UHGV virus genome: UHGV-0106586
DNA length: 61,990 nt
Reading direction: 5' to 3' (one strand)
From: a virus
Part shown: positions 2,509-45,621 of the stretch, one piece after another
Numbering within the stretch: position 1 is the stretch's first letter
Layout of the letters: the number at the start of each line of letters is the position of its first letter
Translations under genes and position numbers: made by a program
The notes under the pieces: generated by a model
The model's database searches: none
Seen by the model: only the letters and a program-made list of their open reading frames with translations
Told to the model about the DNA's origin: nothing

Positions 2509-2778
2509 TTACTTCCTCGTTTTAAGAACTGCTAAGATTTCTTTAGAGTCTGGTAAGAACCATGTGTAGTGATTCTCTTTGATTTCTGGATGAGTGTCAA
2601 CCTTTATTTTGCAATCTTTACCAACATGCTTAAGCTGTGCTGTGACACCTTGCATAAAGATATGACACATCACGTTATCCATAATGGTTGGTATGAAGTC
2701 AATTCGCATATAAGTTTCTTTTGGTCGTGGTAACAGTAAGTACCCTTCTACGTAAAAAGTATCTTCATTCTCTGTCAT
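2509..2778 (-). CDS. hypothetical protein (89 aa)
   Basis: ORF in track; stop overlaps next start. Confidence 0.4.
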   Translation of the reverse strand: MTENEDTFYVEGYLLLPRPKETYMRIDFIPTIMDNVMCHIFMQGVTAQLKHVGKDCKIKVDTHPEIKENHYTWFLPDSKEILAVLKTRK

Positions 2779-3044
2779 TGCTGTTTATTTCCTAATAAAA
2801 TCATATCAATAAGGTTATTAGCTTTGATTGTACATTGGTAGAATCCATCACGATAAAACTCAAGGGCTGCTGCCACATCACTACCAGTATTACCTTTGAC
2901 AGTGAATCTTGACTCTTCTTGAGTGTACTTGTCACCCTCACTTACTTGGGAGTTTTTGAATGTACTGTTCACTTTGTTCGTTGAACACCCTGACATAATT
3001 ATCAGTAACACAAACATTATAAAACTCTGGCTTAGTCTTTTCAT
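2775..3044 (-). CDS. putative o-spanin (outer-membrane lipoprotein, Rz1-like), out of frame and overlapping the 3' end of the i-spanin gene
   Basis: N-terminal signal with lipobox IIMSGC; ATG with GAGG RBS; overlaps 2938-3044 of the i-spanin ORF in another frame. Confidence 0.5.
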   Translation of the reverse strand: MKRLSQSFIMFVLLIIMSGCSTNKVNSTFKNSQVSEGDKYTQEESRFTVKGNTGSDVAAALEFYRDGFYQCTIKANNLIDMILLGNKQQ

Positions 3045-3285
3045 ATGTTATTACCTCTTTTGTGTGCTTATTCTTAGCAAGCACATCTTTCAAATCATTT
3101 TTGTAATTGGTGCTGAGTGTGGCTAAACCCTCCTGATAAGCATCTTTAGCAACACTTATTAGTTTCTCATTATTTAGCTCAGTTTCAGCAACTTGGTAGT
3201 CTCTGTAAGAGTATCCTCCCCAGACACCTGCTCCAACTAAGAAAACAATTATGAAAGTAGCTTGGCAGAACTCTTTAAATGTCAT
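2938..3285 (-). CDS. putative i-spanin (Rz-like: N-terminal TM helix plus coiled-coil periplasmic domain)
   Basis: Hydrophobic FIIVFLVGAGVWGG segment followed by charged helical region; AGGAGA RBS; classic overlapped Rz/Rz1 arrangement. Confidence 0.5.
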   Translation of the reverse strand: MTFKEFCQATFIIVFLVGAGVWGGYSYRDYQVAETELNNEKLISVAKDAYQEGLATLSTNYKNDLKDVLAKNKHTKEVITYEKTKPEFYNVCVTDNYVRVFNEQSEQYIQKLPSK

Positions 3286-3812: not shown

Positions 3813-4508
3813 TCAATGTTTAACTAACATGGTTTTAATGTGTGGAAGGATTCTATTTACCTTCTGAACATTCTTCTCTGTATCTTCTATAAAGCATACT
3901 ATATTAAAGTAAGGAAGAATGCAAGACTGAATCATCCTAACTTTTAAACTTTCTGCACTTATAGAGTTAGTTCCAAAACCACGCATAAAAAGCAAGTAAC
4001 CATGCTCTATATTGTGCCTTAAAAACATCTCAGTAGGTATTCTCTGAGATTCACCTCTTGCTGTCAAGAGTCCAACTGCTGCATGATTTGCAATTGCATC
4101 AATAATGTTGAAAACATATGTTGGCTTTGCTCTTACAGAATCAAGAAGATTAGTGTACTGTGAGAATGACCCATCAGTCAATTCCGTTGAACAATCTTCG
4201 TGATTAAAATTTGTGAGAACCCCATCAATATCTGCTAAGATGAGATTCCCTTTTTCTACAAGGTCTTTATTGACTATGACTAAGCTATCACGACTTACGC
4301 CTATAGATTGTCCAGTCTCTTTGTCCACAACGTTCACAATTGGTTCTGATGTGTGGAACTCTTCAAGTGAACATACAACTTCTCTTGCAGTGTCTTCAAA
4401 ATCCCTGCACTGTTCTGGAGTCCATACACAGGAATCAAGACCTAACTCATGAGGATGCGAGTCATAAGCATGGCACAGTACTTCATCAGACTTTCTTAAT
4501 TTTTTCAT
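3813..4508 (-). CDS. HAD-superfamily phosphatase, possible 5'(3')-deoxyribonucleotidase
   Basis: LILADIDGVLTNF matches HAD motif I (DxDGx); phage nucleotidase context. Confidence 0.5.
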   Translation of the reverse strand: MKKLRKSDEVLCHAYDSHPHELGLDSCVWTPEQCRDFEDTAREVVCSLEEFHTSEPIVNVVDKETGQSIGVSRDSLVIVNKDLVEKGNLILADIDGVLTNFNHEDCSTELTDGSFSQYTNLLDSVRAKPTYVFNIIDAIANHAAVGLLTARGESQRIPTEMFLRHNIEHGYLLFMRGFGTNSISAESLKVRMIQSCILPYFNIVCFIEDTEKNVQKVNRILPHIKTMLVKH

Positions 4509-5034
4509 GATTTACCTTAGAAATGTTTGTTGCAAATTCACATTGAGCGATAACTTTCATATTGTTATAGACATCTTGAGAGTATTTCTTAGCTTTAGGG
4601 ATTTTGTACGAATACCCAGCATTATATGATGCTAAAACTTTTTGTAAAGTCTTCTTTGATTTTGGCTGACCATGTACCTTTGTCCAAAACTCAAGCTCTT
4701 TATGTGTTTCTTTTGCGGCATAATCAAAATCCTTTAAGAGTTTCTTTTTAGCCACATTAGGACTGATTTTGTTACGCTTTACAACAGTCTTCAAGTGATT
4801 CTGGAAAATACCATAGTCATGGGTCTTTTTATTCTCTACCTTCAGACCTAACTCTGACTCTTGTAAGGCTATAGCTGCTAGAGTGATACCCCAACCTTTG
4901 CCCATATTATCCTCACCATACTGGTAAGCTTTTAACATGTTTACTTTTTGGCTAATTGATAGCTCTGGGCAGTCAACTGCATAAGATAAGTGTGCTGTAA
5001 ACATTAAGCACAAACCTAGAATCAACTTCTTCAT
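4486..5034 (-). CDS. secreted lytic transglycosylase-like protein (SLT family) with N-terminal signal peptide
   Basis: Signal MKKLILGLCLMFTAHLSYA; ALQESELG...YGIFQ and YNAG motifs resemble the SLT catalytic region. Confidence 0.5.
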   Translation of the reverse strand: MKKLILGLCLMFTAHLSYAVDCPELSISQKVNMLKAYQYGEDNMGKGWGITLAAIALQESELGLKVENKKTHDYGIFQNHLKTVVKRNKISPNVAKKKLLKDFDYAAKETHKELEFWTKVHGQPKSKKTLQKVLASYNAGYSYKIPKAKKYSQDVYNNMKVIAQCEFATNISKVNHEKIKKV

Positions 5035-31502: not shown

Positions 31503-34202
31503 ATGGAAAACGTAGATTTTAAAAACTTACATTTAGTTGGTGATACAGAAACTGATGGTTTACTCCTTGAGTTTACTAAAGTGCACGTAATGGCTTTCGC
31601 AGACTATAAATCTGACGATGAAGAGCCACCTGTATGGGTCTTTACAGATGAACCTATCCTCGGTCACAAGTATACCAAGTACATTAAGGGTGGTTTACGT
31701 GAAGGTGTTGAATTTGCGTTAAAGGCAAAACGTCTTTGCATCCATAACGGTCTCGGTTATGACTGGTGGGTTTTCAATCACATTGCACCCGATTTGTGGA
31801 ACTTTGATAATCCAAAGTGTAAGCCGTGGAGTAATTTCTTTCAGGATTCTCTTATCCAGTCTCGTGTTCAGTGGATGGATAGACCAACTCCAAAGGGCTA
31901 TAAAGGTGCTCATGGCTTGGCAGCATGGGGTGCTCGTGTGGGTGTCCGTAAACCAGAGATTGAACATTGGGGTGTGTGGAATGCAGAAATCTTCACTCGT
32001 GTTGTGGAAGATATCCGTATTAACGCCAAAACTAAACGTGCATTGGATAATGAATATCTGAAGCTTAAGAAGTGTGGTATAGACACTTATGAAACCTACA
32101 TGCGAGCTAAAGAGACATCTTTCTGGATGAGTCAACAGGCTATCAATGGTTGGAAAGCTGATAAAGAGCTTATGGAGTTCCATGTAAAGGAACTTGACAA
32201 GTTGACTAATGAGCTTGCTTCAGAAGTTGAACCACATCTTCCTCCAACTATTAAAACCAAAGGTAAAGTCACTGGAGAAGAATTTGCAAAAGCTTGGAAT
32301 GAGTATGTTGAAGCGTTTGGTCATGCAGATGGTCTGAAGAGAATTACCAAGTACCCTAAGACAAAGTATCGTCAACAGGTACGCAACGGTGAGATGCAGA
32401 CATATGAAATCAAGCCATTTGGTAAGCCAACTACAAAGATTTTTAACATTGAAAAGCGGAATTGCTATACACCAACCAACTCTGTAACTGGCGAAGAGTA
32501 CAAGGAAGGCTTTGTAGCAATGAAGGATGCTCGTGCAATTTGCAATGAGTTGAATGCAAAGATTGGTAAGAAGTGCAAAGACTGGAAGCCAGTAAAAACA
32601 GTTAAAACTGTGAAGTACTATAACAGCCATGTTGTTAACCACTTTAAGCTTGAGTCAAGTCGCTACACAGGTTTGATTGATGCACCATATACACCAATTG
32701 AGTTCGAAGTTTCTCGTATGACTCAGGTAGCAGTTGTTAAAGACTACTTGAAATCAGTTGGTTGGATTCCAGATGACTGGAACTATAAGAAAGACTCTGA
32801 TGGTCGTCCTGTTAAGGTTTGTCGCTTCAAAGACAACAAAAAGATGATTACAAAACATCCTAAGTGGGATGAGATGGTGGAACGGTGTGGTTTGAGTTAT
32901 GTTGAACATGAAGGTGTCCAGTACATTGAACATAACTGGTCTGTGAAGAAGTACACAGATTTGCTTGAGCCTTGCTTAATCCGTACTTCACCAAAACTTA
33001 CTGAATCATCTTATGATACGATTGAAGGTGAGCTTGGACAGAAGATTGCTAAGTACTATACTTTGATGCACCGACGCAGAACTATTGAGAACTCAAAGGA
33101 TGATGAAAAAGGTTGGTTGAACCAGATTCGTCCAGATGGTCGCCTTAGTGCTGGTGCAATGGTATTTGGTACTTCAACTGGACGTATGACACAATATGGT
33201 ATTGTAAACGTACCGTCTGGTGCTGCTGTCTATGGAGCACCTATGCGGGAAGTTTGGACTTGTGAAGAAGGTACAGATATCATCTCTGTAGACCAAAACT
33301 CAGCACAGCTAGTTCTTCTTTGTAACTTTATGGGTGATGAAGAGTTCACTAAAGCGGTAACTGAAGGTAAAGAGTCAGTAGAATTTACCAAGCAAGAGGA
33401 TGGGAGATACTATTGCAAGCATCTTGATAAGTACCTCAATCCAGAAACTGATAAGTATCTTCGTTATGATGCTGAGAATGACCTCTACGAAGTCTACACA
33501 GGTACTGATGCACATACACTGAATAGTATTTACTTTGGTCTGAACAAGGAAGAAGATATTGTTCGTTGTAGGGAAACACAGGATGAGGAACTTCTCCACG
33601 AGATTACAAAAGGTCGTAAGAAGGCCAAGAATGGCATCTACGCCCTGTTATTTGGAGCCGGAGACGAGAAGTTTGCAAAAACTATCAAGGCATCATCTAC
33701 GGAAGAAGGTGCATTGACTAAACAAACTTACTTTGTGCGTCTACCTAAGATTAAAAAGCTGCTTGACAGGTTAGAGGAAGACTTCAAAGCAACTAAGAAG
33801 GCACTTGAAGAGGTTTTTGGAAAAACTTCTGCAATTGCCAAAGGTGGTTATATCAAAGTCGCTGGAGCGTGGTTATGGTGTAAATCTCCACATAAGTTAT
33901 TGAATTTCACACTCATGGGTAGTGAGGCGCAGGTACAGAATGAGGGGATTAACTTGGCTAATAGAGAGTTAACAGAGCGAAAACTTACAGTTCTAAATGG
34001 TAGGAAACCAGCTATTGGTGCTAGATGGGTCTGTAGTTACCACGACGAAGTTTCTTTAGAGGTTCCAACAAAAGCTGTACCAGATGTTAAGGAGATTATT
34101 GATAGAATGTATGGTCAAGCATCAAAAAATCTTGGATTAAAGAGTAAGACGCTTGTTACAGGCACTGGTAAGGTAGGTAAGACATGGTACGCCGTACACT
34201 AA
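31503..34202 (+). CDS. DNA polymerase, family A (T7 gp5-like) with 3'-5' exonuclease domain
   Basis: N-terminal LVGDTETDG exo I motif; C-terminus ...YAVH as in Pol I family; ATG 31503 preferred (GAGGGAG RBS) over track start 31473. Confidence 0.85.
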   Translation: MENVDFKNLHLVGDTETDGLLLEFTKVHVMAFADYKSDDEEPPVWVFTDEPILGHKYTKYIKGGLREGVEFALKAKRLCIHNGLGYDWWVFNHIAPDLWNFDNPKCKPWSNFFQDSLIQSRVQWMDRPTPKGYKGAHGLAAWGARVGVRKPEIEHWGVWNAEIFTRVVEDIRINAKTKRALDNEYLKLKKCGIDTYETYMRAKETSFWMSQQAINGWKADKELMEFHVKELDKLTNELASEVEPHLPPTIKTKGKVTGEEFAKAWNEYVEAFGHADGLKRITKYPKTKYRQQVRNGEMQTYEIKPFGKPTTKIFNIEKRNCYTPTNSVTGEEYKEGFVAMKDARAICNELNAKIGKKCKDWKPVKTVKTVKYYNSHVVNHFKLESSRYTGLIDAPYTPIEFEVSRMTQVAVVKDYLKSVGWIPDDWNYKKDSDGRPVKVCRFKDNKKMITKHPKWDEMVERCGLSYVEHEGVQYIEHNWSVKKYTDLLEPCLIRTSPKLTESSYDTIEGELGQKIAKYYTLMHRRRTIENSKDDEKGWLNQIRPDGRLSAGAMVFGTSTGRMTQYGIVNVPSGAAVYGAPMREVWTCEEGTDIISVDQNSAQLVLLCNFMGDEEFTKAVTEGKESVEFTKQEDGRYYCKHLDKYLNPETDKYLRYDAENDLYEVYTGTDAHTLNSIYFGLNKEEDIVRCRETQDEELLHEITKGRKKAKNGIYALLFGAGDEKFAKTIKASSTEEGALTKQTYFVRLPKIKKLLDRLEEDFKATKKALEEVFGKTSAIAKGGYIKVAGAWLWCKSPHKLLNFTLMGSEAQVQNEGINLANRELTERKLTVLNGRKPAIGARWVCSYHDEVSLEVPTKAVPDVKEIIDRMYGQASKNLGLKSKTLVTGTGKVGKTWYAVH

Positions 34203-34687
34203 CACTTCAAGACTACAAGGATAATTTTATTTATGACCCCGACAAAGGGGTCTTCTACAACAAGTATGACAGGAATAGGCAAGCTAAAGCTGGGCAGATT
34301 GCAGGAGGAAGTGATGCTTATGGTTACAAAGTACTTAAATTCAAAGATGTCGTAATAAAAGTTCATCACCTCGTTTGGTGGTTCGAGCATGGTTACAAGC
34401 CCACTAAGATGATAGACCACATTGATGGTAACAGAAGTAATAATCATATCTCTAATCTTAGGGAGACTGATAAGTATGGAAACGCCCAAAACAGAGTTAA
34501 GCAGACAGCTAACAAGTCAGGTTACAAGGGTGTGCATTATTTTAAAGACTGCAATAAATGGAGGGCTGCTATAACATGCAGAGGTAAAAGGACATCACTT
34601 GGCTTATTTGACACACCAGAAGAAGCCCATAAAGCTTACTGTGAAGCTGCTATTAAACTCCACGGAGAGTTTGCAAAACTAAGTTGA
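34184..34687 (+). CDS. HNH endonuclease with AP2 domain (free-standing, overlapping the 3' end of the polymerase gene)
   Basis: KVHHLVWWFEHGYKP...IDHIDGNRSNNHISNLRE plus AP2-like SGYKGVHYFKDCNKWRAAI...GLFDTPEEAHKAY. Confidence 0.75.
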   Translation: MVRRTLTLQDYKDNFIYDPDKGVFYNKYDRNRQAKAGQIAGGSDAYGYKVLKFKDVVIKVHHLVWWFEHGYKPTKMIDHIDGNRSNNHISNLRETDKYGNAQNRVKQTANKSGYKGVHYFKDCNKWRAAITCRGKRTSLGLFDTPEEAHKAYCEAAIKLHGEFAKLS

Positions 34688-34948: not shown

Positions 34949-35157
34949 CACTTGCAGACGTTATTCAGCAACTTCACGACAATTGCTATACTCCAGAGTT
35001 GATTCAGGAGATGTCTATTGTGGTAATGCCTTGTAAGTTCGTAAAAGCTTTTAATGGCGAATCTTTAAGGTCTGCACATATCCTTATTGTTGACGGTAAG
35101 ATTGCAAGGGACCGTACAGGAGTCCTTAAGGGTGAACGTATTAGCATTGACATCTGA
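34945..35157 (+). CDS. hypothetical protein (70 aa from ATG 34945)
   Basis: ATG with GGAGA RBS; track start is a TTG. Confidence 0.4.
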   Translation: MTLADVIQQLHDNCYTPELIQEMSIVVMPCKFVKAFNGESLRSAHILIVDGKIARDRTGVLKGERISIDI

Positions 35158-35174
35158 GTATTGGAGATACCAAA

Positions 35175-35330
35175 ATGAAACGCAAAGTAAAATTCTTTAG
35201 TTTGTATGGAAGAGTCGGTAAAGGTTTTGATTGGCAACTTCTACGTTCAGATGTTAAAAGCAACGAGTTAGCACAGCTTATTATAAACTATCGACGAACG
35301 TACAGAGAAGTAGAACATCGTGAACAGTAA
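35175..35330 (+). CDS. small hypothetical protein (51 aa), below track cutoff
   Basis: Hand-translated MKRKVKFFSLYGRVGKGFDWQLLRSDVKSNELAQLIINYRRTYREVEHREQ; GGAGA RBS. Confidence 0.3.
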   Translation: MKRKVKFFSLYGRVGKGFDWQLLRSDVKSNELAQLIINYRRTYREVEHREQ

Positions 35331-35343
35331 TAGGAGAAGTATT

Positions 35344-35580
35344 ATGTGGAAAGCAGTAATTGTGCTTAGTGTTATCCTTCTATCTGGCTGTAATCCCTCT
35401 TACGAGGACAAAAATGCTTCTTATAGCCTCCCACCAGAGATGCAAGATTGCAAAGTCTATAAGTTACATGGTGATGCCATAAGCAGAGATATTGTTGTTG
35501 TCAGATGTCCAAACTCTCAAACAACAACATCTTATAGCTATGGAAAAAATGGTCAATCACACACTACTGTTATTGAGTGA
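35344..35580 (+). CDS. small lipoprotein (78 aa), early region
   Basis: Signal MWKAVIVLSVILLSGC with lipobox LSGC; ATG with AGGAGA RBS. Confidence 0.5.
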   Translation: MWKAVIVLSVILLSGCNPSYEDKNASYSLPPEMQDCKVYKLHGDAISRDIVVVRCPNSQTTTSYSYGKNGQSHTTVIE

Positions 35581-35590
35581 GGTGTTCAAG

Positions 35591-35797
35591 ATGGAAGTCC
35601 TAGTAAACTATATCTACTGTTATGATGTTGTTCACTCCACTACAACCGTAGCTCAACGTAACCCAATCGTCCCACGAGAAGGTGAGTTGGTTCGAATCGA
35701 GGGTTGGACTTACACTGTGGAAAGCATCATTCATAAGTTTGATGTTGCTGGTGATGTTCAAGTTATTGATGTAGAGATTGGTGGTAAGAGAAAATGA
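35591..35797 (+). CDS. hypothetical protein (68 aa from ATG 35591)
   Basis: ATG with GAGG RBS. Confidence 0.4.
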   Translation: MEVLVNYIYCYDVVHSTTTVAQRNPIVPREGELVRIEGWTYTVESIIHKFDVAGDVQVIDVEIGGKRK

Positions 35798-35979
35798 AAA
35801 CAGAACCTGTAAAAACTGAAGACGGAAACATTGAGACATTCTCAATCACAGTCGCTGGTGATGAGTTCTCTTGCAAATGTGGGTGTAACTGCTTTCATAA
35901 ACCAGATAAAACAAAACTTGGTCTTTATGAATGTAATAGCTGTGGGTTGAGGTTCTTAGACAAAAGCAAGGATATGTGA
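35794..35979 (+). CDS. small zinc-ribbon protein, paralog A
   Basis: FSCKCGCNCFHKPDK...YECNSCG; paralogous to ORF 36307..36498. Confidence 0.45.
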   Translation: MKTEPVKTEDGNIETFSITVAGDEFSCKCGCNCFHKPDKTKLGLYECNSCGLRFLDKSKDM

Positions 35980-36227
35980 TGAAGATAACTCAAGAAATGA
36001 AGAAGTTGTATGAGAGAAGTGTGAAGATTCCACCAAGAACTGATGCAAAGAAATTACTATTCAACTCTTGGATGAATGATTGCACGTATGAGCAATACTA
36101 CTTTAAAGTAATAGCATCAGGCGAAAGACCAGAATCACCTGAATTTTATGATATTTACATAAAGGAGCAAGATGAAAAATGTTTAGATTTCTACGAAAAA
36201 TACATGGAAGTTATAAATTCAATTTAA
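35976..36227 (+). CDS. hypothetical protein (83 aa)
   Basis: ORF in track. Confidence 0.4.
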   Translation: MMKITQEMKKLYERSVKIPPRTDAKKLLFNSWMNDCTYEQYYFKVIASGERPESPEFYDIYIKEQDEKCLDFYEKYMEVINSI

Positions 36228-36306
36228 TTATCAAAGAAGACTTTGGTGGACATGCTTGGCACTCCTTCTACTCAAAAGGCTCCATAGATTGTGAGGCAAG
36301 AGATAA

Positions 36307-36498
36307 ATGAACAAAGAAGATAAGCATAAAAATGCTGTACGTACTCCTGATGGAAAGGTTCAATCCTTCATCCTGACAGTTGGTGGAAAGACGTTTCGTT
36401 GCCACTGCGGAGCAAACTGTTTTCATAAACCAGATAAAAATGACCTAGAGCTTTACGCATGTAATGCTTGCAATACTTGGTATCACTCAGAGGAATAA
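36307..36498 (+). CDS. small zinc-ribbon protein, paralog B
   Basis: FRCHCGANCFHKPDK...YACNACN; paralogous to ORF 35794..35979. Confidence 0.45.
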   Translation: MNKEDKHKNAVRTPDGKVQSFILTVGGKTFRCHCGANCFHKPDKNDLELYACNACNTWYHSEE

Positions 36499-36499
36499 A

Positions 36500-37600
36500 A
36501 TGACAATTCTATACAAACAAAATAAAGATGGCTCTTTTAACGTCTGGTCATGCGTTGCTGTAGGCGACAAAGTTATTACAACCTACGGTAAAGAAAATGG
36601 CAAGATGATGTTTGAAGAGTATACAGCAGAACCTAAAAACATCGGTAAAAAGAATGAGCGTAACGCTGAACAGCAAGCTCTCTTTGAAGTTGCTGCTAAG
36701 TATAAAAAGCAAGTTGACCGTAAAGGTTATGCTTACACAAAAGAGTCTGCACAGAATACTGAGAAGGTAGGTGTACAACTTGCTCATGATGCTGCAAAGG
36801 TTAGTCATGCAAAGTATTTGATATTCCCTGCTGATGCTCAACCAAAACTTGATGGTGTTCGTTGTAGAATTTCAAGAGATGCTGATTCAGTTAGCTTCAC
36901 GGCCTATTCTCGTGAGAATACTGTTTACAACGTCCCAGCAGAACTAATCCCAGATTTACTTTTGTTGCTTAAATTGCATCCACAAGTCGAAGACTTTGAT
37001 GGTGAGATTTATGCTCACGGTTGGGACTTAGAAGATATTGTGTCTATGATTAAGAATGCTGACAATCCAGAACGCCACCTTCTTAAATTCTACTGGTATG
37101 ATATCTGTGACAATTCAAAAACTTGGCCTGAGCGTCGTGAAGTTATTGATAACTCACCCATTATTGAGCTTGGTGATACCTGTAGAGTTGTTCCTGTACA
37201 GACTATCCGTGTTAACTCTTGGGAAGAGTTTGATGAAGCTCATGATAAGTGGGTTGAAGCTAAGTTTGAAGGTGCAATGTACCGTTCAATCTCTGAAGAC
37301 TCCTTCTATGAGTGTTGTCACCGTTCATACTTCTTGATTAAGCACAAGAAGATGCACACTGAAGAGTTTAAAGTGACTGGTGTAAAGACTGATAAGCGTG
37401 GTCATGGCAAGTTCGTTGTAGAGACTCTTCCTAACGTCTTTGTAGATGTCTCATGGAAGACTACTCATGAGAAGAAACAGTATCTTGCTGAGCATCCTGA
37501 AGAGTTTATCGGGAAACCTTTAACGGTTCAGTTCCAGAAGATGACTCGTAAGGGGTCTTTACAGTTTCCTGTTGGTTTAGTTATTCGAGATTACGAATAA
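36500..37600 (+). CDS. ATP-dependent DNA ligase
   Basis: KLDGVRC adenylation motif I (KxDG); size ~366 aa; ATG 36500 with AGGA RBS. Confidence 0.75.
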   Translation: MTILYKQNKDGSFNVWSCVAVGDKVITTYGKENGKMMFEEYTAEPKNIGKKNERNAEQQALFEVAAKYKKQVDRKGYAYTKESAQNTEKVGVQLAHDAAKVSHAKYLIFPADAQPKLDGVRCRISRDADSVSFTAYSRENTVYNVPAELIPDLLLLLKLHPQVEDFDGEIYAHGWDLEDIVSMIKNADNPERHLLKFYWYDICDNSKTWPERREVIDNSPIIELGDTCRVVPVQTIRVNSWEEFDEAHDKWVEAKFEGAMYRSISEDSFYECCHRSYFLIKHKKMHTEEFKVTGVKTDKRGHGKFVVETLPNVFVDVSWKTTHEKKQYLAEHPEEFIGKPLTVQFQKMTRKGSLQFPVGLVIRDYE

Positions 37601-37606
37601 AAGTTG

Positions 37607-37634
37607 TTGACATAGATAATTTGGTGAGTATACT
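37607..37634 (+). promoter_or_regulatory. sigma70-like promoter (-35 TTGACA 37607-37612, 16-bp spacer, -10 TATACT 37629-37634) overlapped by an 8-bp inverted repeat (37623-37630 / 37655-37662)
   Basis: Hexamers and dyad read directly. Confidence 0.5.
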
Positions 37635-37804
37635 GAGCATCATAAACCGACGGGTACTCACCAGCATCACTTAAGAGTCTTCTAAGAGGGTTTTTAAGTA
37701 ATGTTCGGTCGGGTTTGGTAGGGTAAGGTCGGGTAAGGTAAGGTAATGTATGGAAGGATGGCAGTAACCTTATAAAAAATCTGCCAAATAAGCTATAAAG
37801 TCTG

Positions 37805-37839
37805 TTGACAAGTCAGGTGTTATAGCTTATTTTTATACT
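37805..37839 (+). promoter_or_regulatory. second promoter-like element (TTGACA 37805-37810; -10 either TATTTT or TATACT) embedded in the inverted repeat agctataa / ttatagct
   Basis: Seen directly; -10 assignment ambiguous. Confidence 0.3.
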
Positions 37840-37877
37840 CAACGTAATACAAAATTTAATATAACTTTGAGGTCATT

Positions 37878-38261
37878 ATGAAAAAGATTTTATTAGCTGC
37901 TGCAATGGTTATGGCAATGAATTTACCAGTCAATGCAACAGAACTCCCCAATGTGGACTTATCAGGTGTTCCAGAAGACACTTGTCAGATTGTTAAAGGT
38001 GTTGCTTTGGCTAATGGTGAGTTACTTAAACCAATCTCTGAAGAGTCTTTAACAGAGATGACTGATAAGGTGACTGACTATCAGTATCGTGTTCTTGCAG
38101 AGTATTTCCTGCAATCTGCAAACATTAAAGAGAAGCACCATGAAGATATTGATGTACAGGCTATGCTCAATCATCGTATTCAGTTTAAAGAAGACTTGAT
38201 GCAAAAAGCTATGTATGGTGTTGAGTATTTCTTAGAAAACAGAAGCTGCACAGGTATTTGA
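37878..38261 (+). CDS. secreted/periplasmic hypothetical protein with signal peptide
   Basis: N-terminal MKKILLAAAMVMAMNLPVNA signal-like sequence. Confidence 0.5.
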   Translation: MKKILLAAAMVMAMNLPVNATELPNVDLSGVPEDTCQIVKGVALANGELLKPISEESLTEMTDKVTDYQYRVLAEYFLQSANIKEKHHEDIDVQAMLNHRIQFKEDLMQKAMYGVEYFLENRSCTGI

Positions 38262-38262
38262 T

Positions 38263-38475
38263 ATGGCTCTTAAAAAGTTACATCCCAGAAGCGGTTATGG
38301 TAAGATAATTGACGATACAGACGGCTTTACAGTCTTTACAGTTATCTGTCAAGATGATTCACAGATTGAAAAGGCTCTTGATGATTATCTTAACGATGAA
38401 CGTGAAAAGGTTAGGGCTACAAACATAGATTCATTGATTGACACTTCACGCAAACGGAAGAAGAAAGATGAATGA
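38263..38475 (+). CDS. hypothetical protein (70 aa)
   Basis: ORF in track. Confidence 0.35.
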   Translation: MALKKLHPRSGYGKIIDDTDGFTVFTVICQDDSQIEKALDDYLNDEREKVRATNIDSLIDTSRKRKKKDE

Positions 38476-38767
38476 GATTTTTGACCCTTATGCTCCACAA
38501 GATGATTGGGAGGCTGACAGAGAGGCTGAAATGGAGAGTTATATTTGTCCAATGGATGTAGACGAAATGAGAGACTTCGTTGCACATCGTTTTAAGAGAG
38601 AGATTAAATCCAGAGGTCTTTCTCAAGAGCAAGTTGCTAAAATTTGTGGTATCTCTCAGGCTCGTGTATCCAACATAATCAATCTCACTGGTAATGTCTC
38701 CCTTGAGTTTATGTTGGAAGTATGTGAAAAATTTGGTGTTAACTTTAATTTAAGGCTGGCAGATTAA
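38468..38767 (+). CDS. helix-turn-helix DNA-binding protein (XRE-like), probable transcriptional regulator
   Basis: LSQEQVAKICGISQARVSNI resembles an HTH; ATG 38468. Confidence 0.5.
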   Translation: MNEIFDPYAPQDDWEADREAEMESYICPMDVDEMRDFVAHRFKREIKSRGLSQEQVAKICGISQARVSNIINLTGNVSLEFMLEVCEKFGVNFNLRLAD

Positions 38768-42041: not shown

Positions 42042-44387
42042 TTAAGCAGTTCTTACCCAAGCCATTAACTTGTAGAACTGGTTAGTAACACTAAATGCTG
42101 AACCAGAACCTGTACCACCAGTGTTACCGCTAACTGTGTGGCTATGAGCACCAATACCTACTGAGTGAGCATGTCCCCCAGCAGATGCAGCAGAACCACT
42201 TACAGAGTGAGTGTGAACACCATCACTTTCTGTACAACCAACGTGCGTTTGAGCAGAGTTTGATGAAGCAACACGACCAGATGGTACGTTAGCGTTATCA
42301 CCTTGTGAGATTCTATGTGCGTGCCCACCACCAGAGTTAGCAGTACCACTTACAGAGTGGGTGTGAGCACCAGTGTTGTTAGTGTTCTTTGTACCATAAT
42401 CAAAAGATGAAGTGGTAGCAGAGAAACTATGGGTATGTGATGGTAAGTTACCAACAGCTAACGTCACAGAATCTGAACCACCAGTTGTAGCAACATCTGA
42501 ACCGTTTGCTGCTGCGATTCTGATAGTTCTACCAATACCATTGTTCAGGTACGTCCAAGTTAACCCAGGAAGTGCTGTATTAGGGTCAACATTACTATTA
42601 AACCACGTTACAATACCTACTGGGTAGATTTTATTCAGGTCTGTAGAGTCACTAATTGCTGTTGCAATCTTCTGGTCAGTCTCTGCTTTAGTATATGCAC
42701 CAATATCTGAAGGAGATGGTTTAAATGCCGTTGAATACAACTGCGCCTCTCCAACATATGCTCCATCTGCTCCATAAGCATATGTGAAGACATCAAGACC
42801 TTTGGACCCGTATGTAAAACCAATACCTCTGGCATGAGCAATACCAGCAGCATGTGCTACATGGATGGCTAAATCTTTCAGACCCTGCTCAATACCGTTA
42901 TTTCTTACAAACCCTGAATAATCTTTGTTGAATGATGCTGAGTCATCCAATCTATTAGTTGTCCTTGTCATTAAAGATTGGTTTAACAGTTTTGTTTTTA
43001 AGAAATATCTAGCATCCAAGTTAGACCAATCAGAAGGTTGAACTTGACCAGTGATTCTTACTGTTTTGTTCAGTAAGAAGTCATCCTTCATGTAAATGGT
43101 AGTAGCAGTCCTGTCATTGTGGATAGTGAACCTTTCTGGGTTGCTTGGTTCCCCATTACCAATATACCACCTTCTAACACCATCAGCATTAAAACCAGCA
43201 AAGTATAACCCATTGTCTTGTGCAGTATTCCTTAGTTGTAACAATAAGCCATTTTGATTAATAATCTGTGCAGACCTGAAATTGTTTACATCACTCAGTT
43301 TAGCAAGATTACTCAAAGTTCCTGCTGGAATATATCTAGAGTCAATGTTAGTCCAATCAGAAGGTTGTACTTGACCATCAATTTGAACTGTTTTGTTCAT
43401 GGCAATAGTGTTACCTAGTGAGACTTGTGTTTTTGTTAGGTAGTTATAGATTTTTAAAATGTTCTCATCACCGTCATTACCAATGTACCACTTATAATTC
43501 CCATCTGACTTTCTTGCTCGAATATATAAAGAGGGAGCAGTGTCCACATTTTGCAGAGTGATGGCTTCAGCATTCTTCTTAGCGATAAAATTAGCGAAAA
43601 TGTTAGTACCAGTAAAAGTATTATTAGCGGTTAACTGTGCAAATCTCTGATTAGCCACTGTCTGAGTGAAGTATCTAGCATCTAAGTTAGCCCAATCAGA
43701 AGGCTGAACTTGACCAGTAATCTGGATAGATTTGTTCACAGAAATTAGGTTATCCAGAAGAGCTAAATACGCACCGGATTTGACATTTTTGATAACAAGA
43801 TTATCTGCACCTCTATTATCATTACCTAGATACCACCTGTTAGTGCCATCTACATCTTGACCACGAATATATAGCGGCATTCCTTGTGTAATGTTCTTAA
43901 CAATAAGAGCTTCATTATCAGAGAGGATAGCTTGAGTACCTCTAAATGTGTTATTTACAGCTAATCTTGCATATCTTGCATCATTCTCTTCATTAGTTCT
44001 CATCCCAAGTTCATTAGGGCTTGGCTTATTCAGAGTATGATAAACAGTTGCCGACCTTGAAGCATCTGCAATAGTTAGTTTAAGGCCATTTGCGTTAATT
44101 TTAAAAGTCTTTAAAACATCCCCAATATTAATCTCAGAAGAGCCTGTTGGGTCAAACACTACCTTACCACCATAAAGTAACTTAACAATCCCTAAGTCAC
44201 CTGTCATAGTACTACCAGCAATCTGAACAAATCTTTCAAGTTTAAAAGATGCTAAGAAATCTCGATAGGTCATTCGACGGTCTTCATCACCCAGCATTTC
44301 AGGTCTCTTTTTAACTCTGACATGAAGAAGGTCGTCTGAACGGATTGTGTCGATTGAGTTTAATTCACTCAACTTGTAATCTGCCAT
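42042..44387 (-). CDS. tail fibre protein with tandem ~100-aa internal repeats and His-x-His-rich C-terminal region
   Basis: Repeated WY(I/L)GN and GQVQPSDW-N-D-RYF modules; C-terminal HTHS/HAHR/HSHT motifs; ends ...AWVRTA. Confidence 0.7.
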   Translation of the reverse strand: MADYKLSELNSIDTIRSDDLLHVRVKKRPEMLGDEDRRMTYRDFLASFKLERFVQIAGSTMTGDLGIVKLLYGGKVVFDPTGSSEINIGDVLKTFKINANGLKLTIADASRSATVYHTLNKPSPNELGMRTNEENDARYARLAVNNTFRGTQAILSDNEALIVKNITQGMPLYIRGQDVDGTNRWYLGNDNRGADNLVIKNVKSGAYLALLDNLISVNKSIQITGQVQPSDWANLDARYFTQTVANQRFAQLTANNTFTGTNIFANFIAKKNAEAITLQNVDTAPSLYIRARKSDGNYKWYIGNDGDENILKIYNYLTKTQVSLGNTIAMNKTVQIDGQVQPSDWTNIDSRYIPAGTLSNLAKLSDVNNFRSAQIINQNGLLLQLRNTAQDNGLYFAGFNADGVRRWYIGNGEPSNPERFTIHNDRTATTIYMKDDFLLNKTVRITGQVQPSDWSNLDARYFLKTKLLNQSLMTRTTNRLDDSASFNKDYSGFVRNNGIEQGLKDLAIHVAHAAGIAHARGIGFTYGSKGLDVFTYAYGADGAYVGEAQLYSTAFKPSPSDIGAYTKAETDQKIATAISDSTDLNKIYPVGIVTWFNSNVDPNTALPGLTWTYLNNGIGRTIRIAAANGSDVATTGGSDSVTLAVGNLPSHTHSFSATTSSFDYGTKNTNNTGAHTHSVSGTANSGGGHAHRISQGDNANVPSGRVASSNSAQTHVGCTESDGVHTHSVSGSAASAGGHAHSVGIGAHSHTVSGNTGGTGSGSAFSVTNQFYKLMAWVRTA

Positions 44388-44433
44388 TATAAATTTTCCT
44401 CTTAAAAGGGGCTATAAAGCCCCTGTAAAGAAA

Positions 44434-45621
44434 TTAAGCTGTTCTCTGCCATACATACAGCACGAAGGATGGCTGTTCAATGTTGAAAGCTTGCCCACCA
44501 CCAACACTGTTCGTGTTTCCACTATGCGTATGCTCAGAAGAAGAAACTGTCACAGTACCATTGTGCGTATGTGAACCAATACCAACTGTGTGACTGTGAG
44601 CACCAATACCCACCGTATGGTTGTGGTCACCAGTTGTGTTAGTGGTAACACTGAAAGAGTGGGTGTGCTCACCAGCGACTTCACAGACAGCATCTGCTGA
44701 GTACCATGATTGGTCATTCCTTGTAGACCAAACCATTGCAGGTCTTTCCGATAGACCACCACCTGCTTCATAGGTCAATCTGTGGTTGTGAGCACCAGCA
44801 GCACTTGTTGACCCACTGCCAACGTGATTATGGTTACCAGTTGTGTTGGTGGTCTTTGTCCCATAGTCAAAAGAGTTGGTAGTCTTAGTCCCATAATCAA
44901 AAGCTGAAATTGACACAGTTGCATTATGAGTGTGACCACCACCACTAAGAGACACAGAGTGAGAGTGTTGAGGCATGTTATTAACTGACAAAGTGACAGT
45001 CGAAGCACCAAATACAGAACCTGCTGGCCTTGTATCAGAGTCATAACCAACCAATGCCCTACCTTTTGAAACCAACTCCCAAGTACCTCCACAAATTAAG
45101 TATGTAGAAGGGTTTGCAGAGTTCATAGAAAGATGGATAGTACCTACTGGATAAGAAGCCTGAACAGCCTTGTACAAGTTATTTACTGCTCTTGCTGTAG
45201 CATACTTATCTGCATCTTCATTATACAGGTTAGATGTTGTCCAGTTCTGAACATTACTTAAACCAACCTGTGCCTTAGTTGTATTGTGTGGGTTACTCTT
45301 GTCCTTGATATGTTGTTGGACAAGATTATTAACCTCTTCTGAAGACATAATCTGTAGATTTGCTCTTGCCTCAGCTACATTAACAATATCTGATAAGTTA
45401 TTTGCAGCAACTAACTGAAGAGCATTAATAACATTATCTAAACCAATCTGTGTCTTAGTAACACCATGAGGGTTATTTCTTAGGCTTGAGTGTGGAGCAA
45501 GTAATTGCTCAAGAGTACACCTCTTATCCTCAATACCCTGCTTAAGATGGAAGATATCACTAAGGTCAATTGGTAAGGCTGCTTGAGGCAAGGCACTAAT
45601 TTGAATTTCACCTACTGCCAT
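44434..45621 (-). CDS. second tail fibre / receptor-binding protein with fibre repeats and His-x-His-rich C-terminus
   Basis: NPHGVTKTQIGLDNV and NPHNTTKAQVGLSNV fibre-repeat motifs; YPVGTIHL... collar-like region; HxH motifs; ends ...VWQRTA. Confidence 0.7.
   Translation of the reverse strand: MAVGEIQISALPQAALPIDLSDIFHLKQGIEDKRCTLEQLLAPHSSLRNNPHGVTKTQIGLDNVINALQLVAANNLSDIVNVAEARANLQIMSSEEVNNLVQQHIKDKSNPHNTTKAQVGLSNVQNWTTSNLYNEDADKYATARAVNNLYKAVQASYPVGTIHLSMNSANPSTYLICGGTWELVSKGRALVGYDSDTRPAGSVFGASTVTLSVNNMPQHSHSVSLSGGGHTHNATVSISAFDYGTKTTNSFDYGTKTTNTTGNHNHVGSGSTSAAGAHNHRLTYEAGGGLSERPAMVWSTRNDQSWYSADAVCEVAGEHTHSFSVTTNTTGDHNHTVGIGAHSHTVGIGSHTHNGTVTVSSSEHTHSGNTNSVGGGQAFNIEQPSFVLYVWQRTA

What the first reader, a model, noticed from the sequence alone, without database searches (positions are those of the whole stretch)
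35344..38261. Envelope-targeted early proteins: a small lipoprotein and a signal-peptide protein
ORF 35344-35580 has a clear lipobox (LLSGC) and ORF 37878-38261 a cleavable signal peptide. Both lie in the plus-strand early-type region among small unknown genes. Small phage lipoproteins are known to act in superinfection exclusion by masking receptors (T5 Llp is the precedent), so these are candidates for receptor blocking or envelope remodelling.
Basis: inference. Interest (0 to 1): 0.45.

Follow-up and report, generated by a model that had tools for sequence, protein, structure and literature searches.

The report
Two exported phage proteins, function unknown

Summary
The window is a Felixounavirus (Felix O1-like) genome piece.

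**ORF A (35344-35580, 78 aa)**
- It has a strong ribosome-binding site and a lipobox (LLSG|C16).
- It matches phrog_902 and the precomputed Pfam family PF16225 (DUF4884), which holds at least 674 clusters at 50% identity.
- The lipid cysteine and two further cysteines are invariant, next to an RCPNSxTTT motif.
- The family sits mostly in large virulent phages of enterobacteria, Vibrio, Aeromonas and Acinetobacter. It is almost absent from bacterial genomes.
- The mature part is under strong purifying selection (dN/dS 0.01-0.08 in most comparisons).

**ORF B (37878-38261, 127 aa)**
- It has a cleavable Sec signal (…VNA|TE) and an acidic, probably helical mature part with two invariant cysteines.
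- It is restricted to Ounavirinae and follows the best sigma-70-like promoter of the block.

**The Llp-style receptor-masking reading is not supported.**
- There is no homology to the mature parts of Llp or Cor.
- Neither gene lies next to the tail-fibre genes.
- Felixounaviruses use the LPS core as receptor.
- The family spans phages with different hosts.

The most likely reading is that ORF A binds a conserved periplasm-facing envelope component, and that ORF B is a lineage-specific periplasmic factor with a Spackle-like build. The function of both remains inferred. Both are new members of known but uncharacterised families, of moderate interest.

The parts
35332..35336 (+). Shine-Dalgarno AGGAG of ORF A, 7 nt before the ATG
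   Evidence: Read directly from the sequence.
35344..35580 (+). ORF A: 78-aa prolipoprotein, member of phrog_902 and precomputed PF16225 (DUF4884)
   Evidence: (phrog_902 E=3.3e-17). dN/dS for the whole ORF is 0.03-0.35.
35344..35388 (+). Type II (lipoprotein) signal peptide, residues 1-15: MWKAVIVLSVILLSG
   Evidence: Rule-based match. The residues change quickly among relatives but stay hydrophobic.
35377..35391 (+). Lipobox L-L-S-G-C. The Cys16 codon (35389-35391) is the predicted lipidated first residue of the mature protein. Asn at +2 predicts outer-membrane sorting by the E. coli rule.
   Evidence: Cys16 is invariant in alignments of 146 and 108 sequences. Family lipobox and +2 residue statistics are.
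35389..35577 (+). Mature lipoprotein: 63 aa, 7.0 kDa, pI 6.1. It has a tether of about 12-15 residues and then a small beta domain.
   Evidence: AlphaFold2 model with a 108-sequence alignment, mean pLDDT 62. dN/dS is 0.01-0.08 against most relatives, highest 0.24.
35449..35508 (+). Cys36 to Cys55 segment. The two invariant cysteines flank the predicted hairpin 37-42/49-54, so a disulfide is likely.
   Evidence: The spacing from the lipid Cys to the second Cys is constant in the family (median 20, range 17-26).
35503..35529 (+). Most conserved motif, R-C-P-N-S-Q-T-T-T (residues 54-62); candidate binding loop
   Evidence: C55, P56, N57 and S58 are invariant; R54 and T60 are at least 90% conserved.
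37607..37634 (+). Best sigma-70-like promoter match of the 31-41.8 kb block (TTGACA-16-TATACT, 11 of 12), in the gap between the ligase gene and ORF B
   Evidence: This is a consensus match only.
37805..37833 (+). Second sigma-70-like site (TTGACA-17-TATTTT), 45 nt upstream of ORF B
37869..37872 (+). Shine-Dalgarno GAGG of ORF B
37878..38261 (+). ORF B: 127-aa secreted protein precursor, phrog_4332, found only in Ounavirinae
   Evidence: (E=5e-67). dN/dS is 0.01-0.25.
37878..37937 (+). Type I signal peptide, residues 1-20: MKKILLAAAMVMAMNLPVNA. Predicted cleavage is after Ala20.
   Evidence: The signal character is conserved in homologues that are 30-34% identical.
37938..38258 (+). Mature periplasmic protein: 107 aa, 12.2 kDa, pI 4.65, predicted helical. 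Invariant Cys36 (37983-37985) and Cys124 (38247-38249) make a disulfide tying the N- and C-terminal ends likely.
   Evidence: The helical prediction comes from a low-confidence model (pLDDT 41).

Best explanation
Both genes encode genuine exported proteins made from the replication-gene block of a Felix O1-like virulent myovirus.

ORF A (inferred route): export by Sec, lipidation on Cys16 and cleavage by signal peptidase II. [quoted passage not shown] There a tether of about 12-15 residues holds a roughly 45-residue beta domain stapled by a disulfide, which presents the invariant RCPNSxTTT loop.

The family is shared by many unrelated virulent phage lineages, has no partner gene and is under strong purifying selection. 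Its most likely target is therefore a conserved periplasm-facing envelope component of the host: an outer-membrane biogenesis or tethering machine, or a peptidoglycan-associated factor. A phage-specific receptor is unlikely. The most probable net effect is protection or sealing of the infected cell envelope, meaning exclusion of secondary genome entry or of damage from outside. I put that last step at roughly 0.3.

ORF B is cleaved by signal peptidase I and released as an acidic, probably helical periplasmic protein closed by one disulfide. It is built like T4 Spackle but is unrelated in sequence. Because it is specific to Ounavirinae, it more plausibly acts on a lineage-specific partner, such as the ejection proteins of an incoming related phage or the phage's own secreted cell-wall enzyme.

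Shown here: the genes, the signals, family membership, distribution and selection. Inferred: localisation, the disulfides, the targets and the phenotype.
For: - Genes and signals.
- The lipobox is kept in 144 of 149 representatives and the Cys columns are invariant.
- Family size is 674 clusters at 50% identity with E up to 1e-3.
- Members occur in Felixounavirus, Mooglevirus, Vequintavirinae, Asteriusvirus, Erwinia jumbo phages, T5-like Vibrio phages, and T4-like Acinetobacter and Aeromonas phages.
- The same motif scan gave 54 loci in viral contigs but only 3 across one genome for each of 185,579 species.
- No neighbouring gene is conserved across divergent loci.
- dN/dS of the mature part of ORF A is 0.01-0.08 against most relatives.
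- The tether length is constant.
- The phage's own spanin pair lies elsewhere, at 2775-3285 on the - strand.
- ORF B keeps its signal peptide and both cysteines at 30-34% identity, has pI 4.65, and follows the best promoter-like site of the block.
- Known exclusion proteins of contractile-tailed phages act on incoming phage parts in the envelope: Spackle on the gp5 lysozyme (PMC7677548) and Imm on the tape measure protein (bioRxiv 10.64898/2026.03.06.709160).
Against: - No experiment or characterised homologue exists for either family. PHROG lists both as unknown function, and Pfam (DUF4884), NCBIfam and PADLOC give nothing informative.
- The ORF B model failed (pLDDT 41).
- About 13% of family members have Asp at +2, so outer-membrane localisation may not be universal.
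- No tail lysozyme was found in the window for a Spackle-like target. The central spike ORF 48674-49297 matches only a spike N-terminal domain, and the ORF beside the tape measure gene is Dit-like.
- The window covers only about 62 of roughly 87 kb.
- Expression timing is inferred from gene position only.
Confidence: 0.45

Rival explanations
1. One reading: ORF A is an Llp/Cor-type superinfection-exclusion lipoprotein. It would bind the phage's own outer-membrane receptor from the periplasmic side and make it unusable.
For: - Size and layout are like T5 Llp: 78 vs 77 aa, a 15-residue signal peptide, LLSGC vs LLSAC, and two further cysteines.
- One Asteriusvirus homologue (fEgEco12 g526) is annotated 'lytic conversion lipoprotein'.
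Against: - The mature domains are unrelated (hhalign probability 0.6%). The cysteine spacing differs: C36-C55 here against C26-C73 in Llp.
- The Cor PHROG matches only the signal peptide.
- ORF A is not next to the tail-fibre genes, whereas llp abuts oad in T5.
- The Felixounavirus receptor is the LPS core (PMC13196588).
- The family is conserved across phages with different hosts and is under strong purifying selection.
- The fEgEco12 label is also given to an unrelated neighbouring lipoprotein, g528, and neither shows BLAST similarity to Llp.
Confidence: 0.08
2. ORF A and/or ORF B control cell-wall hydrolysis or lysis timing. They might inhibit or regulate a peptidoglycan hydrolase, such as the phage's secreted SLT-like protein, host lytic transglycosylases or an incoming tail enzyme. 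Or they might act as antiholin-like sensors, as T4 Spackle and RI do.
For: - The phage encodes a secreted SLT-like protein (4486-5034, - strand) and rIIA/rIIB homologues.
- ORF B is acidic, helical and closed by a disulfide, like Spackle (PMC7677548).
- Bacterial lysozyme inhibitors of the MliC/PliC type are small lipoproteins or periplasmic proteins (established knowledge).
Against: - Neither protein shows sequence similarity to anything in the PDB, which should include the deposited Spackle structure (6X6O, per PMC7677548).
- The SLT-like protein occurs in more than 2000 phage records, including T4-like phages where the ORF A searches found no member, so the two do not co-occur strictly.
- Neither gene is near the lysis genes at 2.7-3.3 kb.
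- No tail lysozyme domain was found in the window.
Confidence: 0.15
3. ORF A is the phage's outer-membrane spanin subunit (Rz1-like), or another lysis lipoprotein.
For: It is a small outer-membrane-type lipoprotein. A weak hit to an Rz-like spanin PHROG (E=0.003) covers residues 3-21 only.
Against: - A proper spanin pair exists elsewhere. 2938-3285 (- strand) matches Rz-like spanin phrog_1152 at E=1e-41, and it overlaps a lipobox ORF at 2775-3044 (- strand).
- ORF A has no adjacent inner-membrane partner, either here or in any divergent locus.
Confidence: 0.02
4. ORF A and/or ORF B neutralise an envelope-located host or prophage defence, or manipulate envelope stress signalling (for example Rcs), rather than excluding other phages.
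For: - Both lie among small accessory genes.
- ORF A is almost confined to virulent phages.
- Some genomes carry two copies of ORF A (L037, L063).
Against: - Counter-defence proteins usually evolve quickly, but the mature part of ORF A has dN/dS of 0.01-0.08 against most relatives.
- Neither protein matches a PADLOC model at a meaningful E-value.
- No such mechanism is known for any lipoprotein of this kind.
Confidence: 0.1

Closest known systems
DUF4884 (Pfam PF16225) / PHROG phrog_902: uncharacterised small lipoproteins
   Same: ORF A is a member. It matches phrog_902 at E=3.3e-17. Precomputed PF16225 hits exist for every full-length homologue. It shares the lipobox Cys, two further invariant cysteines and the RCPNSxT motif.
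   Different: Nothing distinguishes ORF A from the family, except that it lacks the C-terminal V-[VI]-D-G-x-x-Y extension many members carry. The family has no known function. The local Pfam-A scan does not report PF16225.
T5 Llp (lytic conversion lipoprotein) and the Cor lipoproteins of T1/phi80-like phages
   Same: All are small phage lipoproteins of about 77-78 aa, with a 15-residue type II signal peptide and two additional cysteines, made during lytic infection.
   Different: - The mature domains share no detectable homology.
- The cysteine spacing differs.
- ORF A is not adjacent to the receptor-binding protein gene.
- The host receptor is the LPS core, not FhuA or another outer-membrane protein.
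- ORF A's family spans many phage lineages rather than tracking one receptor.
T4 Spackle (Sp, gp61.3)
   Same: Like ORF B, it is a periplasmic protein with a cleaved signal, a small acidic helical fold and one disulfide linking the N-terminal helix to the C-terminal region. It is made by a virulent contractile-tailed phage (PMC7677548).
   Different: - There is no sequence similarity.
- ORF B is larger (107 vs 75 aa mature).
- No gp5-type tail lysozyme was found in this window.
- The ORF B fold is not reliably predicted.
Rz1-type outer-membrane spanin subunits
   Same: ORF A is a small lipoprotein with an outer-membrane-type +2 residue.
   Different: The phage has its own overlapping spanin pair at 2775-3285 on the - strand. 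ORF A has no inner-membrane partner gene and lies in the replication block.

Membership tests
Bacterial-type lipoprotein precursor (type II signal peptide, PROSITE PS51257-style rule) | K/R in the first 7 residues, an uncharged hydrophobic stretch, [LVI][ASTVI][GAS]C with Cys at position 15-35 | tested here: met
   MWKAVIVLSVILLSG|C16 passes the rule. The Cys column is invariant and 144 of 149 representatives keep a lipobox.
Bacterial-type lipoprotein precursor (type II signal peptide, PROSITE PS51257-style rule) | Actual lipidation and signal peptidase II cleavage (globomycin sensitivity, palmitate labelling) | not testable with these tools
   Needs experiment.
DUF4884 (PF16225) / phrog_902 | Significant profile match over the mature domain | tested here: met
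   phrog_902 matches at E=3.3e-17 over residues 1-76. Precomputed PF16225 is present for full-length homologues but absent for frameshifted variants that keep only the N-terminal 47 residues. The local Pfam-A scan did not return PF16225, and that discrepancy is unexplained.
DUF4884 (PF16225) / phrog_902 | Family signature: lipid Cys, then about 20 residues to the second Cys (DCK.Y), then the R-C-P-N-S-x-T motif | tested here: met
   C16, C36, C55, P56, N57 and S58 are invariant.
T5 Llp / Cor superinfection-exclusion lipoproteins | Homology of the mature domain to Llp or Cor | tested here: not met
   hhalign of the mature-only family profile against mature Llp gives probability 0.6%. A PDB-wide profile search returns only signal-peptide matches. 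Cor phrog_1119 matches at E=0.087 over residues 1-21 only.
T5 Llp / Cor superinfection-exclusion lipoproteins | Gene directly adjacent to the receptor-binding protein or tail-tip gene | tested here: not met
   In T5, llp abuts oad (PMC9586334). Here the tail-fibre genes are at 42042-45621 on the - strand, 6.5 kb away across the replication genes. In other phages the homologue also sits among small early or replication genes.
T5 Llp / Cor superinfection-exclusion lipoproteins | The phage uses an outer-membrane protein receptor that the lipoprotein inactivates | not testable with these tools
   The literature names the LPS core as receptor for four Felixounavirus isolates (PMC13196588), which argues against this feature. 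Not tested for this phage.
T5 Llp / Cor superinfection-exclusion lipoproteins | Expression blocks adsorption or infection by the same phage | not testable with these tools
   Needs plating and adsorption assays.
Rz1-type o-spanin | Gene embedded in, overlapping or adjacent to an i-spanin gene in the lysis region | tested here: not met
   The spanin pair is at 2938-3285 and 2775-3044 on the - strand. ORF A has no such neighbour.
Sec-type (type I) secreted protein (ORF B) | Positively charged n-region, 7-15 residue hydrophobic core, small residues at -3 and -1, no downstream membrane anchor | tested here: met
   MKK, then ILLAAAMVMAM, then NLPVNA|TE. Conserved in character at 30-34% identity. 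Checked by rules only, without SignalP.
T4 Spackle | Sequence or profile similarity to Spackle | tested here: not met
   Neither the single sequence nor the 5-sequence profile matched anything relevant among PDB chains. That collection should include the deposited Spackle structure (6X6O, per PMC7677548).
T4 Spackle | A tail-associated lysozyme in the same phage lineage as the target | tested here: inconclusive
   No lysozyme domain was found in the baseplate or tail ORFs of the window. However, about 25 kb of the genome lies outside the window.
phrog_4332 (ORF B family) | Full-length profile match | tested here: met
   E=5e-67 over residues 1-127. Function unknown.

The most novel reading that the evidence does not exclude
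DUF4884 lipoproteins could be a pan-phage 'envelope takeover' factor. A minimal beta-hairpin domain tethered to the outer membrane would bind and inhibit an essential, conserved outer-membrane machine (BAM, LptDE, Lol or Tol-Pal). Many unrelated virulent phages of Gram-negative bacteria would use it to freeze envelope biogenesis, or to seal the infected cell. That would be a new class of natural inhibitor pointing at an antibiotic target.
Probability: 0.12. Interest if true: 0.8.

Novelty: new member of a known kind. Interest (0 to 1): 0.4.

Why it matters
The gene itself is ordinary: it sits, annotated as hypothetical, in hundreds of sequenced Felix O1-like phages.

What is worth knowing is that ORF A belongs to one of the larger uncharacterised phage lipoprotein families. 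The family has at least 674 clusters at 50% identity. It is almost confined to phage and viral contigs, spreads across unrelated virulent lineages, is strongly constrained and has no partner gene. That pattern points to a conserved host envelope target that nobody has identified.

Finding that target would show how large lytic phages handle the Gram-negative envelope during infection, and could reveal a vulnerable site in outer-membrane biology. Felix O1-like phages are widely used for Salmonella and E. coli typing and biocontrol. Exclusion or envelope-modifying genes therefore also matter for how such phages behave in cocktails.

Tried and rejected
- **Structure of ORF B:** the only available homologues were at least 92% identical, so it was folded as a single sequence. 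The model had pLDDT 41 and was unusable.
- **Family libraries:** the local Pfam-A scan gave no family for either protein or for 146 family members, beyond generic lipid-attachment hits. NCBIfam gave only signal-peptide-level hits. PADLOC gave nothing meaningful.
- **PDB sequence and profile searches:** nothing beyond signal peptides.
- **Conserved neighbour:** none was found across 36 divergent loci.
- **Coexistence with Cor:** the T1-like phage Henu8 lists both a 'DUF4884' ORF and a Cor gene (PMC12210894). I could not verify that its DUF4884 protein is related to ORF A. The related phage pSf-1 has no member by my HMM.
- **Coexistence with an Llp analogue:** Vibrio phage 234P1 (T5-like) has the family member plus several other lipobox ORFs, but none lies beside its pb5-like gene. 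This was inconclusive.
- **Bacterial copy:** PHROG gave nothing for the neighbours of the Hylemonella copy.
- **Rfam:** nothing in 35000-38600.
- **Literature:** no paper on the function of either family was found. A search for Felixounavirus transcriptomes returned only unrelated papers.
- **Spanin hypothesis for ORF A:** rejected.
- **'Lytic conversion lipoprotein' label in fEgEco12:** rejected as evidence.


Full report
**Identity of the window.** The 3.9 kb around the finding matches 260 phage records at 80-99% identity, nearly all Felixounavirus (Felix O1-like myoviruses of Escherichia, Salmonella, Shigella and Citrobacter). An IMG/VR contig of 62,131 bp encodes an ORF A and an ORF B identical to the window's.

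The window has three blocks:
- A minus-strand block from 0 to 31 kb: spanins, polynucleotide kinase, rIIA/rIIB, NAMPT, ribonucleotide reductases, primase-helicase.
- A plus-strand block at 31.5-41.4 kb: DNA polymerase, an HNH ORF, small ORFs, DNA ligase, an HTH regulator, DHFR, thymidylate synthase.
- A minus-strand tail block from 42 kb: two tail-fibre genes at 42042-45621, baseplate genes, tape measure gene.

Both ORFs of the finding lie in the plus-strand replication block. 'Early' is an inference from this position.

**ORF A: the observation.** ORF A (35344-35580) starts at ATG, 7 nt after AGGAG. It encodes MWKAVIVLSVILLSG|CNPSYEDK…, which satisfies a PROSITE-style lipoprotein rule. Counting every start in all six frames, shuffled windows give about four such matches. 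The real window gives three loci: ORF A, a 29-aa ORF with no support, and 2775-3044 on the minus strand. So the pattern alone proves little.

The conservation is decisive:
- In a profile search of 1.84 billion representative proteins the family has 674 clusters with E up to 1e-3.
- 144 of the 149 best keep a lipobox.
- The lipid cysteine is one of only three invariant columns in a 146-sequence alignment. The other two are Cys36 and Cys55.
- Among Felixounaviruses the 15 signal-peptide codons collect up to 13 non-synonymous changes yet stay hydrophobic. The mature part has dN/dS of 0.01-0.08 against most relatives, at dS of about 0.4-0.6.

This is a real lipoprotein gene under strong constraint.

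**ORF A: what it is.**
- It matches phrog_902 (unknown function, E=3.3e-17).
- All full-length homologues carry a precomputed PF16225 hit, which the contig tool names DUF4884.
- Frameshifted variants that keep only the N-terminal 47 residues lack that hit. The match therefore depends on the C-terminal part of the protein, not on the signal peptide alone.
- My own Pfam-A scans did not return PF16225. I cannot explain this.
- The family signature is: lipid Cys, a tether with constant spacing to the second Cys (median 20 residues, range 17-26), L-P-x-E-L-x-D-C-K-x-Y, then V-V-R-C-P-N-S-x-T-T-T and G-K.
- AlphaFold2 with 108 sequences gives a modest model (pLDDT 62). It shows a signal helix followed by short strands, with Cys36 and Cys55 at the base of hairpin 37-42/49-54. 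That geometry is consistent with a disulfide staple.
- No solved structure resembles it. The viral structure library returns only family members from Yersinia, Aeromonas, Vibrio and Acinetobacter phages.

**ORF A: distribution and context.**
- tblastn finds members in Felixounavirus, Mooglevirus, Erwinia jumbo phages, Vequintavirinae (4MG, W70, CR3, phiTE), Asteriusvirus (PBECO4-like), T5-like Vibrio phages, and T4-like Acinetobacter and Aeromonas phages.
- Where I looked at divergent phages (Vibrio 234P1, W70, 4MG), the gene sits among small hypothetical genes. In the Vibrio phage these lie between an origin-binding protein gene and the DNA ligase gene.
- Clustering the flanking ORFs of 36 divergent loci found no conserved partner.
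- The same motif scan gave 54 loci in 2.9 million viral contigs, but only 3 across one genome for each of 185,579 bacterial and archaeal species. The scan is limited to one motif, but the enrichment in phages is clear.
- The phage's own spanin pair lies elsewhere. 2938-3285 (minus strand) matches an Rz-like spanin at E=1e-41 and overlaps the lipobox ORF 2775-3044. ORF A is therefore not the outer-membrane spanin.

**ORF A against the Llp model.** I fetched T5 and read Llp, which lies directly beside the receptor-binding gene oad.
- Llp and ORF A look alike as precursors: 77 vs 78 aa, and LLSAC vs LLSGC.
- The full-length profile comparison gave 83% probability, but the aligned part was essentially the signal peptide.
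- With signal peptides removed the probability is 0.6%.
- Llp has its extra cysteines at positions 26 and 73; ORF A has them at 36 and 55.
- The Cor PHROG touches only residues 1-21.
- ORF A is 6.5 kb from the tail fibres, on the other strand.
- Four Felixounavirus isolates were shown to need the LPS core, not an outer-membrane protein, for adsorption (PMC13196588).
- A receptor-specific blocker should track receptors and evolve with them. This family is shared across phages of different host genera and is strongly constrained.

I therefore reject membership of the Llp/Cor group and give the receptor-masking mechanism a low probability.

One Asteriusvirus homologue is labelled 'lytic conversion lipoprotein'. 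So is an unrelated neighbouring lipoprotein, and neither resembles Llp, so the label carries no weight.

**ORF B.** ORF B (37878-38261) follows GAGG and encodes MKKILLAAAMVMAMNLPVNA|TE….
- It matches phrog_4332 (unknown function, E=5e-67).
- It occurs in about 259 records: at least 90% identical in Felixounavirus, and 30-36% identical in Mooglevirus and Suspvirus. Nothing matches outside Ounavirinae.
- The distant homologues keep an MKK/hydrophobic/A-x-A signal and both cysteines, Cys36 and Cys124.
- dN/dS is 0.01-0.25.
- The mature protein is 107 aa with pI 4.65. It is predicted helical, but from a failed model (pLDDT 41).
- It is the first gene after a 278-bp gap holding the best sigma-70-like site of the block (37607-37634, 11 of 12) and a second site at 37805-37833.
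- In build it resembles T4 Spackle, a 75-aa periplasmic helical bundle with one disulfide that inhibits the tail lysozyme (PMC7677548).
- There is no sequence similarity to any PDB chain.
- I found no tail lysozyme in the window. The spike ORF matches only a spike N-terminal domain, and the ORF next to the tape measure gene is Dit-like.

**Mechanism.**
- *Shown:* two conserved genes with export signals, their family membership, distribution and selection.
- *Inferred for ORF A:* Sec export, lipidation and signal peptidase II cleavage. [quoted passage not shown] In the family as a whole, 13% have Asp at +2. A short tether keeps a disulfide-stapled beta domain close to the membrane.
- *Target of ORF A:* breadth, constraint and the lack of a partner gene point to a conserved host envelope component.
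- *ORF B:* it is a soluble periplasmic factor. Its restriction to one phage subfamily fits a target that is itself lineage-specific. In contractile-tailed phages the known envelope exclusion proteins act on incoming phage parts: Spackle on gp5, and Imm on the tape measure protein (bioRxiv 10.64898/2026.03.06.709160).
- *Committed reading:* an envelope-protection or exclusion role that does not work by receptor masking. Overall confidence is about 0.45, and about 0.3 for the exclusion phenotype itself.
- *Rivals:* control of cell-wall hydrolases or lysis timing (0.15), counter-defence or stress-signal manipulation (0.10), Llp-type masking (0.08), spanin (0.02).

**Novelty and verdict.** Both proteins are new members of families that are already catalogued but uncharacterised, and the genes are present in hundreds of deposited genomes. 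The finding is real, but its proposed mechanism is largely unsupported. The useful result is that ORF A belongs to a large, phage-restricted, strongly constrained lipoprotein family with no known function, which is a reasonable experimental target. Interest 0.4.

Noticed in passing
window 37601-37877: The gap between the ligase gene and ORF B holds two sigma-70-like promoters. It folds unusually well as RNA (z=-3.15) and contains GGT-rich repeats around 37700-37750. Relatives have two extra ORFs inserted here (L002 4592-5622, L011 1052-2082). It may be a small RNA or a regulatory leader; Rfam finds nothing.
   Followed up: partly
window 35794-35979 and 36307-36498: Two paralogous zinc-ribbon mini-proteins (both phrog_5768; shared CxC…CFHKPDK…CNxC pattern) flank an 83-aa ORF. 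Many relatives cover only 87-88% of the 3.9-kb query, so part of this stretch may be absent from them; I did not map which part. Related records label the corresponding small ORF just upstream of the ligase gene as 'DNA ligase'.
   Followed up: partly
window 34184-34687: A 167-aa ORF with an HNH-like motif overlaps the last codons of the DNA polymerase gene. The two close relatives I inspected have a 72-aa ORF there instead, which suggests a mobile endonuclease insertion.
   Followed up: no
window 2775-3285 (- strand): An overlapping spanin pair: 2938-3285 matches Rz-like spanin phrog_1152 (E=1e-41), and the overlapping 89-aa ORF 2775-3044 has a lipobox (…IIMSG|C).
   Followed up: partly
window 4486-5034 (- strand): A 182-aa protein with a cleavable-looking signal peptide (MKKLILGLCLMFTAHLSYA) and a weak SLT transglycosylase match, so a secreted cell-wall enzyme. 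Homologues occur in more than 2000 phage records, including T4-like phages.
   Followed up: partly
L006 8001-8255 (JGI contig Ga0495683_0000001, 2.23 Mb): A DUF4884 lipoprotein gene lies on a 2.23-Mb metagenomic contig among ankyrin-repeat, cysteinyl-tRNA synthetase and dUTPase genes and many genes without any Pfam hit. The contig could be a giant virus or an unusual bacterium. An identical protein with the same neighbouring genes is on a 160-kb Logan contig (L007).
   Followed up: no
phage records MG065668.1 and GU169904.1: Records named 'Campylobacter phage A126' and 'Staphylococcus phage SA1' carry ORF B at 97-98% identity. They therefore contain Felixounavirus sequence, which suggests contamination or mislabelling.
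   Followed up: no
family alignment A2 / representatives P0018-P0166: Many DUF4884 members have C-terminal extensions that ORF A lacks. These are one or more V-[VI]-D-G-x-x-Y strands (sometimes repeated), a KLTxEExKALGL helix, or an extra two-cysteine module. Some phage contigs carry two copies of the gene (L037, L063).
   Followed up: no
tool behaviour, vs 10/31/53: The local Pfam-A scan never reports PF16225, although the precomputed tables list it for every full-length family member.
   Followed up: partly
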